From Candidatus Eiseniibacteriota bacterium (lineage in GTDB: Bacteria > Eisenbacteria > RBG-16-71-46 > CAIMUX01 > VGJL01): 64,000 nucleotides of DNA. Position 1 is the stretch's first letter. Every line of letters starts with the position of its first letter. The stretch is taken from the NCBI GenBank assembly GCA_016867495.1, contig VGJL01000001.1:92153-156152 (forward strand), read 5' to 3'. Below, piece after piece: positions 1 to 9,000 of the stretch. The position numbers were made by a program.

Positions 1-3000
1 GCTCCTCCGGCAGAGCAAGATCGGCGTCGACCCGGAGAAGAACCGGCTGCTCAAGCTCTTCCGGCGGACCGTTCCAATGGTGCAGGACTACGATGGGCAG
101 AAGTTCTTCTGCCGCCGCAGGGACCGCCTCCTCGCTACCCCGCTCATCGCCGTCCTCCTCGTTGTCGAGACGACAGACGTGGTCTTCGCTCTTGATTCGA
201 TTCCAGCGATCCTCGCTATCACTCGCGATCCCTTCATCGTCTTCGCCTCGAACATCTGCGCAATCCTCGGCCTGCGATCGTTCTACTTCCTCTTCGCCAC
301 CCTCGTCGATCGTCTGCACTATCTGCAGTACGGCCTGGCGGTCGTGCTCTGCTTCGTCGGGGTCAAGATGGTCCTCTCGCACTTCGTCAAGATCCCGATC
401 GGAGTCTCCCTGGAGTTCGTCGCGGCGGCCATCGCCGTTTCTGTCATCGTCTCGCTCATGAGGCCCGGGAAGAGCCGGCGGGAAGCCGTCCAGGCCGAGG
501 CCGCGGAATCGTGATGCGTCGGGGGAGCTGGACTGAAGGGGCGCGCCTTGCGCCATTCACCTCCTGGCGGATCGGCGGCCCTTGCCGCGCGCTCGCAGAG
601 CCCGCGACGCCGGAGGAGCTGACCATCTCGCGCAGAGAAGCGGAGCGCCTCGGCTGGCCGGTCTTCCTGTTGGGAGGCGGGACGAACCTGCTGGTCGCCG
701 ATGAGGGGTATCCCGGTCTGGTCGTTCGCTACGCGGCCCGGGGAAGGAGCCTCGAGGTGATCGGGGATCGCGCCATCGTCCGCGCGGAGGCCCGTATGCC
801 TCTGGCCGGCCTCGCCCGCGAAACCGCCCGGTCGGGATGGGCGGGGATGGAGTGGGCGGAGGGGATTCCCGGAACCCTGGCCGGCGCCGCCGTCGGCAAT
901 GCCGGCGCCTACGGGGGGCAGATGGCCGATGTCGTCGTGGGAGTGGAAGTCGTCCTGCCCGACGGCAAGCTGGAAACCTGGCCTCCCGGTAAGATGGAGT
1001 ACGGCTACCGCCGCTCTGCCCTCAAGGGGCGCGATCCCGCGGGCCCTACCGTCGTGGCCGTTCAGATCGAGCTTGAGCGGGACGATCCGGAGCGCCTTGC
1101 GGCCGAGATCCGACGGATCGCCGGCGAAAGGAAGTCGAGGACGCCGGCCGGGGCTTCCTGCGGATCTGTCTTTCGCAACCCGCCCGGAACCTCGGCGGGC
1201 AGGCTGATCGACCAGGCGGGCTGCAAGGGACTGCGAAAGGGAGGCGCGTTCGTCAGCGATCTGCACGCGAACTACATCTTGAACGAGGGTGGAGCGCGAG
1301 CCCGCGACGTCCTCGATCTGATCGACGAAGTGCGCCGTCGCGTTCGCGGAGCCTTCGGGATCAGTCTGGAGCTGGAGATCCAGCTGGTCGGCTTCGGCGA
1401 GTCAGTCTGACGATCCCGAGGTCAGGGAGCCACGAAGAGCCGAAGCCAGGCCTCCTCGCGCGCGCGAAGCGCGGCGATGGCGCCGGCGCCCGGCTTCCCC
1501 TGCTGGAGGATGCAGAAGGCGTAGCGTTCCCCTCCGGCCCGATCGACGTAGCCGGCCATGCTGCTCACGCCGATGTCGCCGAGCGTCCCTGTCTTGGCGC
1601 GCAGCCCCGGGGCGCCGCCGTCTCGGAAGCGCTTCTCCATGGTCCCCTCGTCCCCGGGGCGGGCGAAGGAGGCATAGAGGTCCGGGAAGATCCTCTCTTC
1701 GCCGTGCGCCCAGGCGAGGAGGCGCACGATCTGCTCGGCGGAGATCCGGTTCGAGGGAGAGAGGCCGCAGCCATCCTTGAGGATCGGCAGGGGATCCAGA
1801 CCGACCCTGCCGCGGAGCCACTCCTCGACCCTCGCCCTTCCCGCCGCCGCGGACCTGTCCGCGCCGAGATCCACCAGGAGAAGATCCGCCATGAAGTTGT
1901 TGCTCCAGAGATTCATGCTCCGAACGAGGAGCGAGAGCGGCAGGGACTCGAGCGTGGCGAGCGGGTAGGCCCCGGCCGGCGGAGCCCCGAGTCGTACTCC
2001 GGAGACCCCGATCCCCTGCTGCGCCAGGATGCCGCGCAGCATCCCGCCCGCGAGAAAACCCGGATTGCGGGTCGATCGGAAGATTCGCGCCGGGCCCGAC
2101 CCATGGGCGATCGCGCCCTCGAGAGTCCACACTTCCCTCTCCCCATCGAAGCTCCGCCTCGCGACGACCGGCGCGGTCGCCTTCTCAAGAACCGTCTCGA
2201 CGAGGCTGTTGCTCTCGATCCCTGGAAGGGGAAACGGCTCAATCCGGCACTCCGCCCTCTCTCCAACGCTCGCTCCCGGCAGGATGAGGAACGAGACGCT
2301 GTTGAAGTTCACTCCGAGAATCGAGACGGGGGCCGCATACGGGCTGTCCGAGGCTTCCGCGAGCCGCAGCGAATCGAGGTCAGCCACGATCGGAGCGGCA
2401 ACGACGATGTCGCCCCGCACCTCCGTGAGGCCCGAGATCGCCGCTTCACGGCCCAGGAGCCAGAGACGCTCGGAGACGAGGAAGGGGTCTCCATCCCCGA
2501 CCAGGTACAGATCCCCTTCGAGGATCCCGCCGCGCGCTTCCTGCTCCCGGAGGAGCGACGTGGAGAACCGATGCCCCGGGCCGAGCATGTCGAGGGCCGC
2601 CGCGCTCGTCACGACCTTCTGCACGCTCGCGGGGGGGAGCATCAGCTCCCCTCCGATCGCGACCCTCTCCCCCGCTCCGCAGACCGGCGCGAAGACCACG
2701 CCGACGGCGATCGTCTCGTCTTCGTTCGCGGCGCGCAGCGCATCCGCGAGGGCCGCGGGCGTCCCCGCCGATGATCGAGCGGCGATCAGCGCGATCGCGA
2801 AGAGAAGAGCGATGCGCGGGCCCTGCGCCGTTCGCCTTCCGCGACCGCGGGAGGGGCCGGAGATCAGATCCTCCGCGCGGCGGAGAAGAGCGGCCGAACC
2901 CTTGATCCCCCGAGCGTCCGAGAGCGAAGCGCGCCCGCTGGGCATCCTGTGTCAGTCCTCCAGCTCGAATCGCTGGAGGGGCGTCCGGCCCGCCAGCAGG

Positions 3001-6000: not shown

Positions 6001-9000
6001 ACCAGCGGAGACAACCTCCGATCTCCTTCGGCTCCATTCCGGTCCTGCCCGGGGCATCGGAGATCGCTAGGGTTCCGCCGGCCTCGACCACGGCGGCGAG
6101 GAGTCGGCGTTCCGGGATTCCTCCCTGAATCCAGCGCCGCCCTTCGGGGCGAATCACCAGCTCGCGATAGGCCTCCTCGGCAATTCTCAGGAGCCCGATC
6201 TCGGCAAGCTGCACGGCCGCGGCGGCCACGCGCGCTTGATCGAGAGCGAGATCCTCGCCCAGCTCCGCCACCCTCTTGCCGTCGCCAGCCTCCCCAAGGT
6301 GCGCGAGGAGCCGAATCTGATCGTCAGGCAGGCGCATTCCATCGTCCTCTCATCATGACGGCCTCGCCGTCGTTTCCCCTTCTCTCGCGGCCCGAGCGAG
6401 GCGGTGGCTGCCCACGATTGCCGCCGTCTCCGCCCGCAGTCGGGTCGGCCCGAGGGACCAGCGGATCGTACCGCAGGCTTCGAGCGCGCGCCTCTCGCCC
6501 TCGCTCAGCCCCCCTTCGGGCCCCACGAGCAACCGGACGCGCAACGCCCCGCGCAAGTCGGGCAGCGCCTCCGACCCGGCGGGATCGGCCAGCAGGGCCA
6601 CGGTGCGCGCCCCGTCGGGCCGGGACGCTCCCTCACGCCGCGCCGGCGCTCCTCCGCGCTCCGGGGGACCGCTCGCGCCCGAGCCGGAGAGCGCGAAAGT
6701 GACAGGATCCTCGGGATGGACGATCTCGGGCAACCAGGATCGCTCCGACTGCTTCGCGGCCTCGCGCGCGATCCTCTCCCAGCGGGCGCGCGGAATCGCG
6801 GCCGACTCCTTCACGGCGCGCTCCCAGAGAAGAGGCGTGAGCGAATCGACGCCGACCTCGACCGCCTTCTCGAGAAGCCACTCGACGCGCGCCCGCTGCC
6901 GCAGCATCGGGAATCCGAGATCGAGTCGCGGCGCGGGGGGTTCGTCCCGCATCCTCTCGATCACGGTTCCCACCAGGCGCCCCTGCTCCTTCCCCAGAAC
7001 CACCCGGTATCGTCCCCCTCGCCCGTCCACCACCCTGCACGCATCGCCCGGCTTCAACCGGATCACCCTGAGGATGTGGCGGCTCTCCTCCTCGGGAAAG
7101 AGGACGCGGCCATCGACGTCAATGCACTCGGCCGGCACAAGGAAGGGATGGGGATCGCGGCCCATGCTCAGCCTGCGAAGGCATCCCGGATTCGATCGAA
7201 GAACCCTTTCTCGGCCTTCGCCGGACGGTTCCCCTCCAGGCGGCGGAGCTCCTCATATAGTTCCCGCTCGCGCGCTCCGAGCTTCTCGGGAACGCGGATC
7301 TCGACGCGGATCAGCTGGTCGCCGTGCTCCCGCGACCGCACGGAGCGGATCCCCTTGCCCCGCAGCCGCAGAACCTTCCCCGCCTGGAGTCCGGGCGGGA
7401 TCTCGACCATCGCCCTTCCCCCCAGCGTCGGGACCTCGATCCGCGCGCCGAGGGCCGCCATCGCCGGCGTGATCGTGATCCGAGTCAGAACGTCGTCGCC
7501 ATGACGCTCGAAGATCTCGTGGGGCTTCTCCTCGAAGATCACGATGATGTCGCCAGGAGGGGAGCCCCGGAAACCGGCGTGGCCCCGTCCCCTGAGGCTC
7601 ATGTAGTTCCCCTCCATCACCCCGGGAGGGATCTTGACGATCACCGTCTCCTGGCCCGCGCCGACTCCGTCTCCCCGGCACTCACGGCAGGGGTTCTCGA
7701 TGATCCTCCCTTCCCCGCGGCATCTCGGACAGGCAGTGACATTCACGATCTGCCCGAAGAAGGACCTCTGGACCTGCCGCACCTGTCCCTGCCCCGCGCA
7801 TTGCACGCAGGTCGTGACGCCGCTGCCGGGCTCGCCACCCGTCCCCTTGCAGTGCGGGCAGGGCACACCCTTCTTGACCCGCACCTTCTTCTCCGTCCCT
7901 TCGGCGATCTCTTCCAGACCGAGCTTCAGTCTGATCTGGATGTCTCCCCCCCGCGTCTCCCGCGCCCTCCCGCCCATCTCCTCGTCGCCGAAGAAGGAGC
8001 CGAGGCCTCCGAACTCCCGCATGAAGGCGCGAAGAGCGTCCGAGAGATCGAAACCGAAGCCTCCCCCAGCTCCGGCGCCGCCGGCCCCGTAGGAGGGATC
8101 GACGCCGGCGTGACCGAAGCGGTCGTACTGCGCCCGCTTCGTCTCGTCCGAAAGGACCTCGTAGGCCTCCGTCACTTCCTTGAAGGACTCTTCCGCCTCC
8201 TTGCTGCCGGGATTGCGGTCGGGATGGTGCTTGAGGGCGAGCTTGCGATAGGCCTTCTTGATCTCATCCGGGCCGGCGCTCTTCTCGACGCCCAAGACCT
8301 CGTAGAAATCTCGCTTCGCCAACTCGACAACCCCTCCACGCGCCTTCCCGCCGCGGATCGAGCCGGGACTTGACGCTGATTCCCAACCGTAGGACCCGCA
8401 TCACCGGGGGTCAAGTCGCGTGCCACAGGCCTGATGGACGCCCGCTCTCCGGCTCGCAACTCGGGGGAGAGTCTACGCGTCGGCCGCCTGTCATTGGAAG
8501 CCGTGCCGAGCCCGCGCCGGGATCCGGATTGACCTTCCGCGAAGCGATGGGCTAGCGTGAGGCCTCCCGGCACGAGCGGGTCAGGTCAGCGGATATTCGC
8601 GGTCAGGTCGTCCAAGGAGGGCCAGATGATCGAGCGACTCGGGCGCGAGCCGAGGCTGTCGGGCCGACGCAGGAGAGGCATCGTCTGGACGGGGCTCATC
8701 GGCAGCCTGTCGCTCCTCGTTCTGCTCGGCGCCCTCGGCATCGCCGGCTGCGGAGATGACAAGAGCGGCAAACCGGACGATCAGCCGACTGGACCACGGC
8801 ATCCGCAGGACCTGTTGCCGCCGACCGGAGGCAGCATCACGCGCACCGGCGATCTCCTTCTCGCCGACACCGCCCAGGAGCTTCAGGCCGCGATCAACGG
8901 CGGCTACACCCTGTACGTGAGCTACTCCTTCCAGGAGTTCGCCGGCCAGGAGTACACGGCCCAGGTCGGGGCGGAGCAACGCGTCAGGATCTGGATCTTC

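What the first reader, a model, noticed from the sequence alone, without database searches (positions are those of the whole stretch)
2952..6337. Archaeal/eukaryal-type phenylalanyl-tRNA synthetase (pheS-pheT) in a bacterial housekeeping context
The alpha subunit is 505 aa with a long N-terminal extension and the beta subunit is 632 aa. Both match the archaeal/eukaryal subunit sizes and motifs rather than bacterial PheS (about 340 aa) and PheT (about 800 aa). This arrangement is known from spirochaetes and a few other bacterial lineages, where it is attributed to ancient horizontal transfer. It is therefore a useful phylogenetic marker for this lineage. Codon usage matches the neighbouring genes.
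Basis: partly seen in the sequence, partly recalled or inferred. Interest (0 to 1): 0.55.

Follow-up and report, generated by a model that had tools for sequence, protein, structure and literature searches.

The report
Archaeal-type PheRS operon in a bacterium
This bacterium, apparently a member of Candidatus Eisenbacteria, charges tRNA-Phe with the archaeal/eukaryal form of phenylalanyl-tRNA synthetase rather than the bacterial form. This is a known kind of ancient gene replacement, but here it belongs to a large bacterial subfamily spanning several phyla, marked by an extra four-cysteine insert in the beta subunit.

Summary
On the minus strand, pheS (4820-6337, 505 aa) and pheT (2952-4829) form an overlapping operon. 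Both pass the curated archaeal-type models (NF003210, 550 bits; TIGR00471, 454 bits). PheT fails the bacterial model TIGR00472 and lacks the bacterial B2 and B8 domains. The surrounding genes are clearly bacterial and diderm (murB, PBP4, dnaJ, lepA, a lipid A acyltransferase, a TonB receptor).

Two corrections:
- PheT most likely starts at the ATG at 4829, giving 625 aa, not 632.
- The distribution is wider than spirochaetes plus a few lineages. At least 389 GTDB species representatives encode close relatives. They are labelled Eisenbacteria, Planctomycetota/Phycisphaerae, Myxococcota, Eremiobacterota/Vulcanimicrobiota, Gemmatimonadota, Actinomycetota and Nitrospinia.

All of these carry a roughly 40-residue Cys4 insert (C-x2-C-x15-C-x2-C) in the B1 domain. 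About 108 archaeal cluster representatives lack it at that position. In a neighbour-joining tree with eight archaeal representatives, the bacterial group separates from archaea in 200 of 200 bootstraps. The Eisenbacteria-labelled loci form one group with conserved synteny, so the gene is old and vertically inherited there.

Catalytic motifs and the residues aligned to the P. horikoshii editing site are present. The window's tRNA-Phe has the bacterial U20, not the archaeal/eukaryal G20. Absence of a second, bacterial-type PheRS was checked only within the window. Verdict: an ordinary housekeeping enzyme and a new member of a known kind.

The parts
4820..6337 (-). pheS, the alpha subunit of archaeal/eukaryal-type PheRS (505 aa).
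   Evidence: NF003210, 549.7 bits over residues 1-503. Pfam tRNA-synt_2d, 303 bits, at aa 228-499. Human cytosolic alpha chain 3l4g_A, E=3.4e-81, aligned over aa 16-491. The ATG at 6337 lies 15 nt after the rsmE stop codon and is preceded by GAGAGGA.
5738..6337 (-). The roughly 200-residue N-terminal extension of PheS. In archaeal/eukaryal enzymes this region holds three DNA-binding-fold domains and replaces the bacterial coiled coil.
   Evidence: The full-length NF003210 match begins at residue 1. The alignment to the human alpha N-terminus starts at aa 16. There is a weak MarR_2 winged-helix match at aa 3-52. The domain roles come from PMC3275996.
4841..5656 (-). Class II catalytic core of PheS. 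It contains motif 2 (GRVFRRE...FYQVDG), the FPYTEPS Phe-site segment and motif 3 (GLGLERIAM).
   Evidence: PF01409, aa 228-499. The motifs were read directly from the translation.
2952..4829 (-). pheT, the beta subunit of archaeal/eukaryal-type PheRS. It is most likely 625 aa from the ATG at 4829 (the ORF from the upstream GTG at 4850 gives 632 aa).
   Evidence: TIGR00471, 454.2 bits, against TIGR00472, 134.6 bits and below its cut-off. The closest homologues are 625-634 aa and start MPVI. A Shine-Dalgarno-like AAGGGGG lies 7 nt upstream, and the start overlaps the pheS stop (4822-4820) by 10 nt. AlphaFold2 model with pLDDT 88.9; the best Foldseek matches are the eukaryal beta chains 8s8b_C, 3l4g_B (human, TMt 0.72) and 7by6_B, then the P. 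horikoshii fragment 2cxi_A (TMt 0.94).
4575..4715 (-). Subtype-specific insert of roughly 40 residues in the B1 domain (aa ~39-85), with a Cys4 zinc-ribbon-like motif: C46-x2-C49-x15-C65-x2-C68.
   Evidence: All four Cys are invariant in alignment A1. The motif is present in all full-length top hits, in 77 of 80 genome loci (the three exceptions were not fully recovered: two cut by contig or alignment ends, one a probable frameshift) and in 34 of the 35 cluster representatives of the subtype. It is absent at this position from about 108 archaeal representatives. Eukaryal and archaeal chains align to aa 1-37 and then resume from about aa 73-96, depending on the chain. Model pLDDT is 81-87 in this region, with short strands.
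3894..4544 (-). B3/4 editing domain (aa ~96-312). L248, S257, N263, D279 and T281 align with P. horikoshii L202, S211, N217, D234 and T236.
   Evidence: Alignment to 2cxi_A, E=3.1e-44, and to full-length P. horikoshii PheT. These columns are invariant or nearly invariant in A1. The role of Asn217 is taken from PMC3275996. The other four residues are from my memory of Sasaki et al. 2006 and were not verified here.
3006..3809 (-). B5 domain followed by the catalytic-like module (B6/B7). The protein ends here, with no B8 anticodon-binding domain.
   Evidence: PF03484 B5, 80 bits. PF17759 tRNA_synthFbeta, 150.9 bits, reaching aa 615 of the 632-aa ORF.
26476..26551 (-). tRNA-Phe(GAA), the presumed substrate. 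It has G34, A35, A36, A73, U20 and C59.
   Evidence: ARAGORN and Rfam. Positions were numbered by hand from the sequence. The identity sets are from PMC9976931.

Best explanation
pheS and pheT encode the organism's housekeeping phenylalanyl-tRNA synthetase, an (alpha-beta)2 enzyme of the archaeal/eukaryal architecture (family PheRS-A in the AARS Online classification).

How it most likely works:
- The alpha subunit activates phenylalanine and transfers it to tRNA-Phe in its class II core.
- The roughly 200-residue N-terminal DNA-binding-fold domains of alpha take over the tRNA and anticodon-arm contacts that the B8 domain makes in bacterial enzymes.
- The beta subunit supplies the B1 and B5 domains, the catalytic-like module for tetramer assembly, and a B3/4 editing site that hydrolyses mischarged Tyr-tRNA-Phe.

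The two genes are translationally coupled through a 10-nt overlap. They sit in a dnaJ-rsmE-pheS-pheT-PBP4 run on the minus strand, next to a divergent murB.

The enzyme belongs to a bacteria-specific subfamily marked by a Cys4 zinc-ribbon-like insert after residue ~38 of beta. From memory, this is where bacterial beta subunits carry their B2 OB-fold. The subfamily is found in several bacterial phyla and has evolved largely within phyla. In Eisenbacteria it is inherited vertically. It most likely derives from an old transfer of the whole operon from an archaeon, which replaced the bacterial enzyme.

Shown here: the family assignment, the domain content, conservation of the motifs and of the residues aligned to the P. 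horikoshii editing site, the insert, the distribution, the synteny and the co-variation of the two subunits.

Inferred: enzymatic activity, that this is the only PheRS in the genome, zinc binding and the role of the insert, and the direction and number of transfers.
For: Family and architecture:
- Curated models and domains.
- PDB sequence matches: eukaryal/archaeal beta chains at E=1e-58 to 1e-67, against bacterial beta chains at 1e-22 or weaker and only over B5 plus the catalytic-like module. Alpha subunit.
- Structure model: the best Foldseek matches are eukaryal beta chains (human 3l4g_B, TMt 0.72) and P. horikoshii beta (TMt 0.94), against about 0.4 for bacterial beta chains.
- The editing-site residues align and are conserved (Asn217 per PMC3275996).

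Bacterial host:
- MurB, PBP4, RsmE, DnaJ, LepA, LepB, GlmS and GlmM.
- A TonB receptor, a lipid A acyltransferase, a secretin and PilM.

Not recent and not an artefact:
- Third-position GC matches the neighbouring genes.
- dnaJ-rsmE-pheS-pheT-(PBP4)-murB synteny is found in independent Eisenbacteria MAGs.
- The nearest homologues are bacterial, up to 71% identical. P. horikoshii is 35% identical.

Subfamily:
- 389 GTDB species representatives encode a relative.
- The Cys4 insert is present in 77 of 80 loci and in 34 of the subtype's 35 cluster representatives, and absent at that position from about 108 archaeal representatives.
- Named members are bacterial on one side and archaeal on the other.
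- The bacteria-versus-archaea split has 200/200 bootstrap support, as does the Eisenbacteria group of 24. Subgroups are broadly coherent by phylum label.
- PheS and PheT pairwise distances correlate with r=0.94 over 63 loci.
- The 4-nt overlapping operon is kept in most loci.
Against: - No biochemical data exist for any member of this subfamily.
- A second, bacterial-type PheRS elsewhere in the genome was excluded only for this 64-kb window.
- In the larger tree with 109 archaeal representatives, the subfamily is recovered as one group with only 53/100 bootstrap support, and its position within the archaeal radiation is unresolved. All trees are neighbour-joining on corrected p-distances, not likelihood trees.
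- The window's tRNA-Phe carries U20, whereas G20 is an identity element for the yeast and A. pernix enzymes. Recognition at that position must therefore differ, or not matter.
- Many organism labels are submitter labels of MAGs, and some ('uncultured Burkholderiales', 'uncultured Enterobacterales') are probably wrong.
Confidence: 0.85

Rival explanations
1. The archaeal-type pair is an extra or specialised copy, for example a resistance or stress-related paralogue, and a normal bacterial PheRS elsewhere in the genome does the housekeeping work.
For: This cannot be excluded from a 64-kb window. Only the window was searched for a second copy. Duplicate aminoacyl-tRNA synthetases conferring antibiotic resistance are known in other systems (general knowledge).
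Against: The pair sits in conserved housekeeping synteny across independent Eisenbacteria MAGs. Its catalytic motifs and aligned editing residues are present. It is conserved across at least 389 species. Its composition matches the host.
Confidence: 0.07
2. The genes come from the same archaeon-to-bacterium transfer that gave Spirochaeta, Treponema and Borrelia their PheRS, spread onwards to other phyla.
For: The spirochaete case is the classic example (PMC3191353). One locus labelled 'uncultured Spirochaetia' (L030) carries the insert-bearing subtype.
Against: Published spirochaete beta subunits are 514-573 aa and group with Thermococcales. That is too short to hold the insert. The present subtype is about 600-670 aa. 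The Thermococcales-like representatives (P0257, P0183, P0266, P0267) are among the more distant branches in the tree, and P. horikoshii is only 35% identical. No verified spirochaete sequence could be retrieved, so this is indirect.
Confidence: 0.06
3. The finding is an artefact: either the window is archaeal, or an archaeal fragment was mis-assembled or mis-binned into a bacterial contig.
For: The window is high in GC, as some archaea are. Metagenome assemblies can be chimeric.
Against: The flanking genes are peptidoglycan, lipid A, TonB, secretin and LepA/LepB genes. rsmE ends 15 nt before pheS. The same gene order recurs in many independent assemblies. GC3 is uniform. The closest homologues are all from bacterial MAGs.
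Confidence: 0.01

Closest known systems
Archaeal/eukaryal cytosolic PheRS (family PheRS-A; structures: human 3L4G, P. horikoshii beta fragment 2CXI)
   Same: - An alpha subunit of about 500 aa with an N-terminal extension of DNA-binding-fold domains, plus a class II core.
- A beta subunit with B1, B3/4 (editing), B5 and the catalytic-like module, and without B2 or B8.
- Both subunits pass the curated models.
- Fold match: TMt 0.72 to human beta and 0.94 to P. horikoshii beta.
- The editing-site Asn (Ph N217, human N238) and neighbouring residues are conserved.
   Different: - It is encoded in a bacterium as an overlapping pheS-pheT operon.
- The beta subunit has a roughly 40-residue Cys4 insert in B1, absent from the solved structures and from about 108 archaeal cluster representatives.
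- It is only 35% identical to P. horikoshii beta.
- The cognate tRNA-Phe has U20 rather than G20.
Spirochaete archaeal-type PheRS (Spirochaeta, Treponema, Borrelia; Andam and Gogarten 2011, PMC3191353)
   Same: A bacterium using an archaeal-type alpha-beta PheRS in place of the bacterial form. Both subunits were acquired together, and the gene serves as a shared derived character of a bacterial group.
   Different: The spirochaete beta subunit is 514-573 aa with Thermococcales affinity. Here the beta subunit is 625 aa with a Cys4 insert, in a separate subfamily spanning several phyla that is not specifically close to Thermococcales. Not compared sequence to sequence here.
Bacterial PheRS (family PheRS-B; T. 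thermophilus 1PYS, E. coli 3PCO)
   Same: The same reaction and heterotetrameric logic. The homologous parts are the class II core, B5 and the catalytic-like module (aligned at E=1e-12 to 1e-22), and the pheS-pheT operon arrangement.
   Different: - No coiled-coil alpha N-terminus.
- No B2 OB-fold and no B8 anticodon-binding domain.
- Fails TIGR00472.
- From my memory of UniProt P07395 (B2 at residues 39-148), the Cys4 insert occupies the sequence position after B1 residue ~38 where the bacterial beta subunit carries B2. Not verified here.
CPR bacteria with archaeal-type TyrRS/TrpRS and matching archaeal tRNA identity elements (PMC5370408)
   Same: An interdomain replacement of an aminoacyl-tRNA synthetase in uncultivated bacteria.
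   Different: In those bacteria the tRNAs carry archaeal identity elements. Here the single tRNA-Phe examined keeps the bacterial-type U20, so no co-transfer or conversion of tRNA identity is apparent.

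Membership tests
Archaeal/eukaryal-type PheRS alpha subunit (NF003210 / PheRS-A alpha) | Scores above the curated cut-off of the archaeal-type alpha model over its full length. | tested here: met
   549.7 bits against a cut-off of 350. Residues 1-503 cover profile positions 2-493 of 496.
Archaeal/eukaryal-type PheRS alpha subunit (NF003210 / PheRS-A alpha) | An N-terminal extension of about 200 aa made of DNA-binding-fold domains, in place of the bacterial coiled coil (PMC3275996). 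| tested here: met
   The protein is 505 aa and the class II core starts at aa 228. The N-terminus aligns to the human alpha chain from aa 16. There is a weak winged-helix (MarR_2) match at aa 3-52. The fold of this region was not modelled.
Archaeal/eukaryal-type PheRS alpha subunit (NF003210 / PheRS-A alpha) | Intact class II motifs 2 and 3 and the Phe-site segment. | tested here: met
   GRVFRRE...FYQVDG, FPYTEPS and GLGLERIAM were read from the translation. PF01409 scores 303 bits.
Archaeal/eukaryal-type PheRS beta subunit (TIGR00471 / PheRS-A beta) | Passes TIGR00471 and fails the bacterial TIGR00472. | tested here: met
   454.2 bits (cut-off 282.65) against 134.6 bits (cut-off 402.65).
Archaeal/eukaryal-type PheRS beta subunit (TIGR00471 / PheRS-A beta) | Lacks the B2 (EMAP-like OB-fold) and B8 (anticodon-binding) domains. 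| tested here: met
   No tRNA_bind or FDX-ACB Pfam match at E<=0.01. The catalytic-like domain runs to within about 17 residues of the C-terminus. The model matches eukaryal/archaeal beta chains much better than bacterial ones.
Archaeal/eukaryal-type PheRS beta subunit (TIGR00471 / PheRS-A beta) | B3/4 editing site of the archaeal/eukaryal design, with Asn (Ph N217 / human N238) in place of the bacterial His261. | tested here: met
   N263 aligns with Ph N217 and is invariant in A1. The role of this residue is taken from PMC3275996.
Archaeal/eukaryal-type PheRS (holoenzyme) | Forms an (alpha-beta)2 tetramer, charges tRNA-Phe and edits Tyr-tRNA-Phe. | not testable with these tools
   Indirect support only: the overlapping operon and the co-variation of the two subunits, r=0.94.
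Bacterial-type PheRS (TIGR00472 / PheRS-B) | A beta subunit of about 800 aa with B2 and a C-terminal B8 domain, and an alpha subunit of about 340 aa. | tested here: not met
   Subunit sizes are 505 and 625 aa.
Spirochaete transfer clade of archaeal-type PheRS | A beta subunit of 514-573 aa that groups with Thermococcales (PMC3191353). | tested here: inconclusive
   The size (625 aa), the Cys4 insert and the lack of special affinity to Thermococcales-like sequences argue against membership. No verified spirochaete sequence was available for a direct tree.
Zinc-ribbon insert (Cys4) | Two CxxC knuckles about 15 residues apart, conserved across the family. | tested here: met
   C46, C49, C65 and C68 are invariant in A1. 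The motif is present in 77 of 80 loci. The region is confidently modelled with short strands, pLDDT 81-87.
Zinc-ribbon insert (Cys4) | Binds a metal ion. | not testable with these tools
No Pfam zinc-ribbon family matched.

The most novel reading that the evidence does not exclude
The insert-bearing enzymes may be a previously undescribed, bacteria-specific subfamily of archaeal-type PheRS. It is shared by parts of Eisenbacteria, Planctomycetota, Myxococcota, Eremiobacterota, Gemmatimonadota, Actinomycetota and Nitrospinota. It would stem from one very old interdomain transfer, separate from the spirochaete one. On this reading the enzyme gained a zinc-ribbon module at the position where bacterial beta subunits carry the B2 RNA-binding domain. 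It was also re-tuned to a bacterial U20 tRNA-Phe, giving a natural experiment in re-fitting a foreign synthetase to a resident tRNA.
Probability: 0.3. Interest if true: 0.45.

Novelty: new member of a known kind. Interest (0 to 1): 0.3.

Why it matters
- For annotation and phylogenomics: genomes of these lineages will lack the bacterial pheT marker (TIGR00472), which I recall is part of common bacterial marker sets. This could slightly depress completeness estimates or leave gaps in concatenated alignments.
- For evolution: the classic 'spirochaete' example of interdomain synthetase replacement appears to be only one of at least two such events. The other has spread across, or been retained in, several bacterial phyla.
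- For enzymology: the conserved Cys4 insert and the U20 tRNA-Phe give two concrete, testable questions about how a foreign synthetase is fitted to a bacterial tRNA.
- None of this overturns current understanding. The enzyme itself is ordinary and is already annotated automatically as phenylalanine--tRNA ligase.

Tried and rejected
- **Spirochaete comparator.** I took the Thermococcales-like representative P0257, hoping it was bacterial because a PlsY-family gene follows it. The PlsY match is weak (45.8 bits against a cut-off of 137.2), the neighbouring TrpRS is of archaeal type, and close homologues are labelled Diapherotrites. It is therefore archaeal. A homologue search seeded with it returned only Thermococcales and DPANN archaea.
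- **tRNA-Phe of relatives.** No tRNA-Phe lies within 6 kb of pheST in 60 related loci. A metagenome scan seeded with the neighbouring GlmM gave only hits 35-40% identical over the full length (plus three short fragments at 52-56%), not close relatives. The U20 observation therefore rests on one gene.
- **Second PheRS.** phmmer of PheS and PheT against all 565 six-frame ORFs of the window found only the two genes themselves.
- **Literature.** Six searches found the spirochaete case, the PheRS-A/PheRS-B classification and structural reviews. They found nothing on a Cys4-insert subfamily or on these phyla. The held library is incomplete, so this is not proof of novelty.
- **Biopython neighbour-joining bootstrap.** It timed out and was replaced by my own numpy implementation.
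- **Rejected readings.** An archaeal window, a chimeric assembly and a recent transfer are rejected; see the rival explanations.

Full report
**1. What is in the sequence**

Two ORFs lie head to tail on the minus strand: 4820..6337 (505 aa, ATG) and 2952..4850 (632 aa from the first GTG) (translations).

The upstream protein is a PheRS alpha subunit of the archaeal type:
- NF003210/PRK04172 scores 549.7 bits (cut-off 350), matched from residue 1 to 503.
- Pfam places the class II core (tRNA-synt_2d) at aa 228-499.

The downstream protein is a PheRS beta subunit of the archaeal type:
- TIGR00471 scores 454.2 bits (cut-off 282.65).
- The bacterial model TIGR00472 reaches only 134.6 bits against a cut-off of 402.65.
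- Pfam finds B5, the catalytic-like module and a weak B3_4 match. It finds no B2 (tRNA_bind) or B8 (FDX-ACB) domain.

Solved structures agree:
- Beta matches eukaryal and archaeal chains at E=1e-58 to 1e-67. It matches bacterial chains only over B5 plus the catalytic-like module, at 1e-22 or weaker.
- Alpha matches human cytosolic alpha at 3.4e-81 from residue 16 onwards.
- An AlphaFold2 model of beta (pLDDT 88.9) superposes on human beta with TM 0.72 and on the P. horikoshii N-terminal fragment with TM 0.94. Bacterial beta chains give about 0.4.

**2. Corrections of detail**

The homologues of beta listed are mostly about 600-666 aa (the closest 625-634 aa) and begin MPVI. In the window an ATG at 4829 is preceded by AAGGGGG seven bases upstream. 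It overlaps the pheS stop codon (4822-4820) by 10 nt, in the string ATGCCTGTGA. The beta subunit is therefore most likely 625 aa (2952-4829) and translationally coupled to pheS. pheS itself starts 15 nt after the rsmE stop codon.

**3. Context**

The host is a diderm bacterium.
- Around the operon are a TerC fragment, murB, a PBP4-type D-Ala-D-Ala carboxypeptidase, rsmE and dnaJ.
- Further along are hemW/hemN-like, lepB, lepA, ridA, glmS and glmM genes.
- The window also holds a lipid A acyltransferase, a TonB-dependent receptor, a secretin and pilM.
- Third-position GC of pheS and pheT (0.82, 0.86) lies within the range of the other high-GC3 ORFs of the window that passed the filter (0.80-0.92).
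- No other ORF in the window resembles PheS or PheT.

**4. Relatives**

The nearest beta homologues are 50-71% identical, and those that carry names are from Candidatus Eisenbacteria MAGs. At 45-49% identity come sequences labelled Eremiobacterota and Nitrospinota.

A scan of one genome per GTDB species found 389 species encoding a relative that shares two diagnostic peptides. The best 80 are labelled Eisenbacteria, Vulcanimicrobiota/Eremiobacterota, Actinomycetota, Planctomycetota/Phycisphaerae, Myxococcota, Gemmatimonadota and Nitrospinia, among others. Some 'uncultured ...' labels are probably unreliable.

In most of these loci pheS sits immediately upstream of pheT and overlaps it by 4 nt. 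The longer gene order dnaJ-rsmE-pheS-pheT-(PBP4)-murB is shared only with the Eisenbacteria-type loci. On that basis, together with 63-71% identity of DnaJ and MurB to the closest of those loci, I assign the window to an Eisenbacteria-like organism.

**5. A subtype-specific insert**

Every full-length top hit has C-x2-C-x15/16-C-x2-C at residues 46-68. The four cysteines are invariant in a 26-sequence alignment that reaches down to 45% identity.

Eukaryal and archaeal beta chains align to residues 1-37 and then resume from about residues 73-96, depending on the chain. This is therefore an insert of roughly 40 residues inside the B1 domain.

An exhaustive HMMER search of 1.84 billion cluster representatives shows a sharp break:
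- The top ~35 representatives are about 570-670 aa, align from residue 1 and carry the motif. One of them has lost the cysteines.
- Below them, representatives are about 530-570 aa, align from query residue ~87 and lack the motif. One has an unrelated N-terminal Cys4 extension.

Named members of the first set are bacterial: Gemmatimonadota, 'Deltaproteobacteria', Phycisphaerae and Planctomycetota. Named members of the second set are archaeal: Thermoprotei, Bathyarchaeota, Thermococci, Heimdallarchaeota and Diapherotrites.

The motif is present in 77 of the 80 genome loci. The three exceptions were not fully recovered: two are cut by contig or alignment ends and one has a probable frameshift. 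The insert is modelled with pLDDT 81-87 as short strands, which is compatible with a zinc ribbon. Metal binding is not shown.

From my memory of UniProt P07395, the bacterial B2 domain occupies residues 39-148. That is the same sequence position after the first B1 segment. I offer this as an inference, not a tested result.

**6. Trees**

All trees are neighbour-joining on Kimura-corrected distances from MAFFT alignments.

With 77 locus sequences, the window and 8 archaeal representatives:
- The bacterial insert-bearing group separates from archaea in 200 of 200 bootstraps.
- All Eisenbacteria-labelled sequences, the window and 11 unlabelled MAGs form one group of 24, also in 200 of 200 bootstraps.

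The remaining sequences fall into subgroups that are broadly coherent by phylum label.

In the wider tree with 109 archaeal representatives, the insert-bearing group is recovered with only 53/100 support. Its attachment point within a star-like archaeal radiation is unresolved.

Pairwise distances of PheS and PheT across 63 loci correlate with r=0.94, so the two subunits have travelled together.

The picture is an old acquisition of the operon, followed by long residence in several phyla and vertical descent within Eisenbacteria. These data cannot decide whether the distribution across phyla reflects one early transfer with later spread between phyla, or retention and loss.

**7. Function**

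- The alpha core contains motif 2 (GRVFRRE...FYQVDG), FPYTEPS and motif 3 (GLGLERIAM).
- In beta, the residues aligned with P. horikoshii L202, S211, N217, D234 and T236 are L248, S257, N263, D279 and T281. All are invariant or nearly so in the family alignment.
- Asn217 (human Asn238) is described as taking the place of the bacterial editing His261 (PMC3275996). The other four residues I recall from Sasaki et al. 2006 and did not verify.

I therefore expect a fully active, editing-competent PheRS. It should work as described for archaeal/eukaryal enzymes, in which the alpha N-terminal DNA-binding-fold domains replace the missing B8 in tRNA binding (PMC3275996).

**8. The tRNA**

The window holds tRNA-Phe(GAA) at 26476-26551. 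Numbered by hand from the sequence, it has the universal G34, A35, A36 and A73. It has U20 and C59. A review of identity elements lists G20 for yeast and A. pernix, and U20/U59 for E. coli (PMC9976931).

So the resident tRNA kept a bacterial-type position 20. Either this enzyme subfamily does not read position 20, or it has adapted to U. This rests on a single tRNA gene, because attempts to collect others failed.

**9. Comparison with what is known**

Archaeal-type PheRS in bacteria is a textbook case for Spirochaeta, Treponema and Borrelia. It is attributed to one transfer from a Thermococcales-like archaeon, with beta subunits of 514-573 aa (PMC3191353).

The present enzyme is the same kind of thing but is probably not that event:
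- It is longer.
- It carries the insert.
- It is only 35% identical to P. horikoshii beta.
- It is not specifically close to Thermococcales-like sequences.

I could not obtain a verified spirochaete sequence, so this remains indirect.

Searches of the held literature found no description of the insert-bearing subfamily or of its spread across these phyla. The AARS Online classification recognises only PheRS-A and PheRS-B. The library is incomplete, and these proteins are already annotated automatically in public MAGs.

**10. Verdict**

The gene pair is an ordinary, essential housekeeping enzyme of a known unusual type: a new member of a known kind.

The added points of modest interest are:
- the breadth of the bacterial subfamily;
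- its conserved Cys4 insert;
- the unconverted tRNA-Phe.

The main open point is whether a bacterial-type PheRS also exists elsewhere in the genome.

Noticed in passing
window 22460-22555 (-): A tRNA-Sec (UCA) gene, 72 bits in Rfam, lies just upstream of lepA. The longest lepA ORF (20180-22537) overlaps it, and its GTPase domain starts only at aa 192, so the real lepA start is probably well downstream. The organism presumably makes selenoproteins.
   Followed up: no
window 9273-13652 (+) and 41447-44638 (-): Two very large ORFs (1459 aa and 1063 aa) with coding-like GC3 have no Pfam match at all. The second lies directly downstream of a TonB-dependent receptor gene (44639-47488).
   Followed up: no
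window 40000-48000: GC content drops to 0.62-0.64, against 0.66-0.71 over most of the first 40 kb. The low-GC stretch covers the TonB-receptor region.
   Followed up: no
window 48278-62149: A cluster of type IV pilus or type II secretion-like genes. It includes PilX_N and N-methylation-motif proteins, a 946-aa pseudopilin-like protein with fn3 and 3-keto-disaccharide hydrolase domains, a secretin and PilM.
   Followed up: no
L037, L039, L041, L043, L053 (no pheS upstream); L038, L058 (pheS 1-2 kb away): In several Planctomycetota/Phycisphaerae loci the pheS-pheT operon is split, or pheS is absent from the upstream flank. Most other loci keep the 4-nt overlap.
   Followed up: partly
P0169 (691 aa; JGI contig of 61.7 kb): A PheT representative that falls among the archaeal-type representatives (its own origin is unnamed) has a different Cys4 motif (CPNCG...CPKC) in an N-terminal extension of about 110 residues, not inside B1. 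This suggests zinc-ribbon modules were added to PheT more than once.
   Followed up: no
L081 7659-8270 (+), also L082: In a Diapherotrites-like archaeal contig, a PlsY-family (PF02660) membrane protein gene overlaps the end of pheT. Its match to the bacterial PlsY model is weak (45.8 bits against a cut-off of 137.2).
   Followed up: partly
L002-L024, downstream of murB: In Eisenbacteria-type relatives, murB is followed by a divergent tRNA-Leu(CAA)/tRNA-Ala(GGC) pair. In the window, murB is instead flanked by a TerC-family fragment at the window edge (77-514).
   Followed up: no
P0148 (644 aa): One cluster representative inside the insert-bearing group keeps the insert length but has lost the four cysteines (...DVCRYRSKHGDYVLE...).
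   Followed up: no
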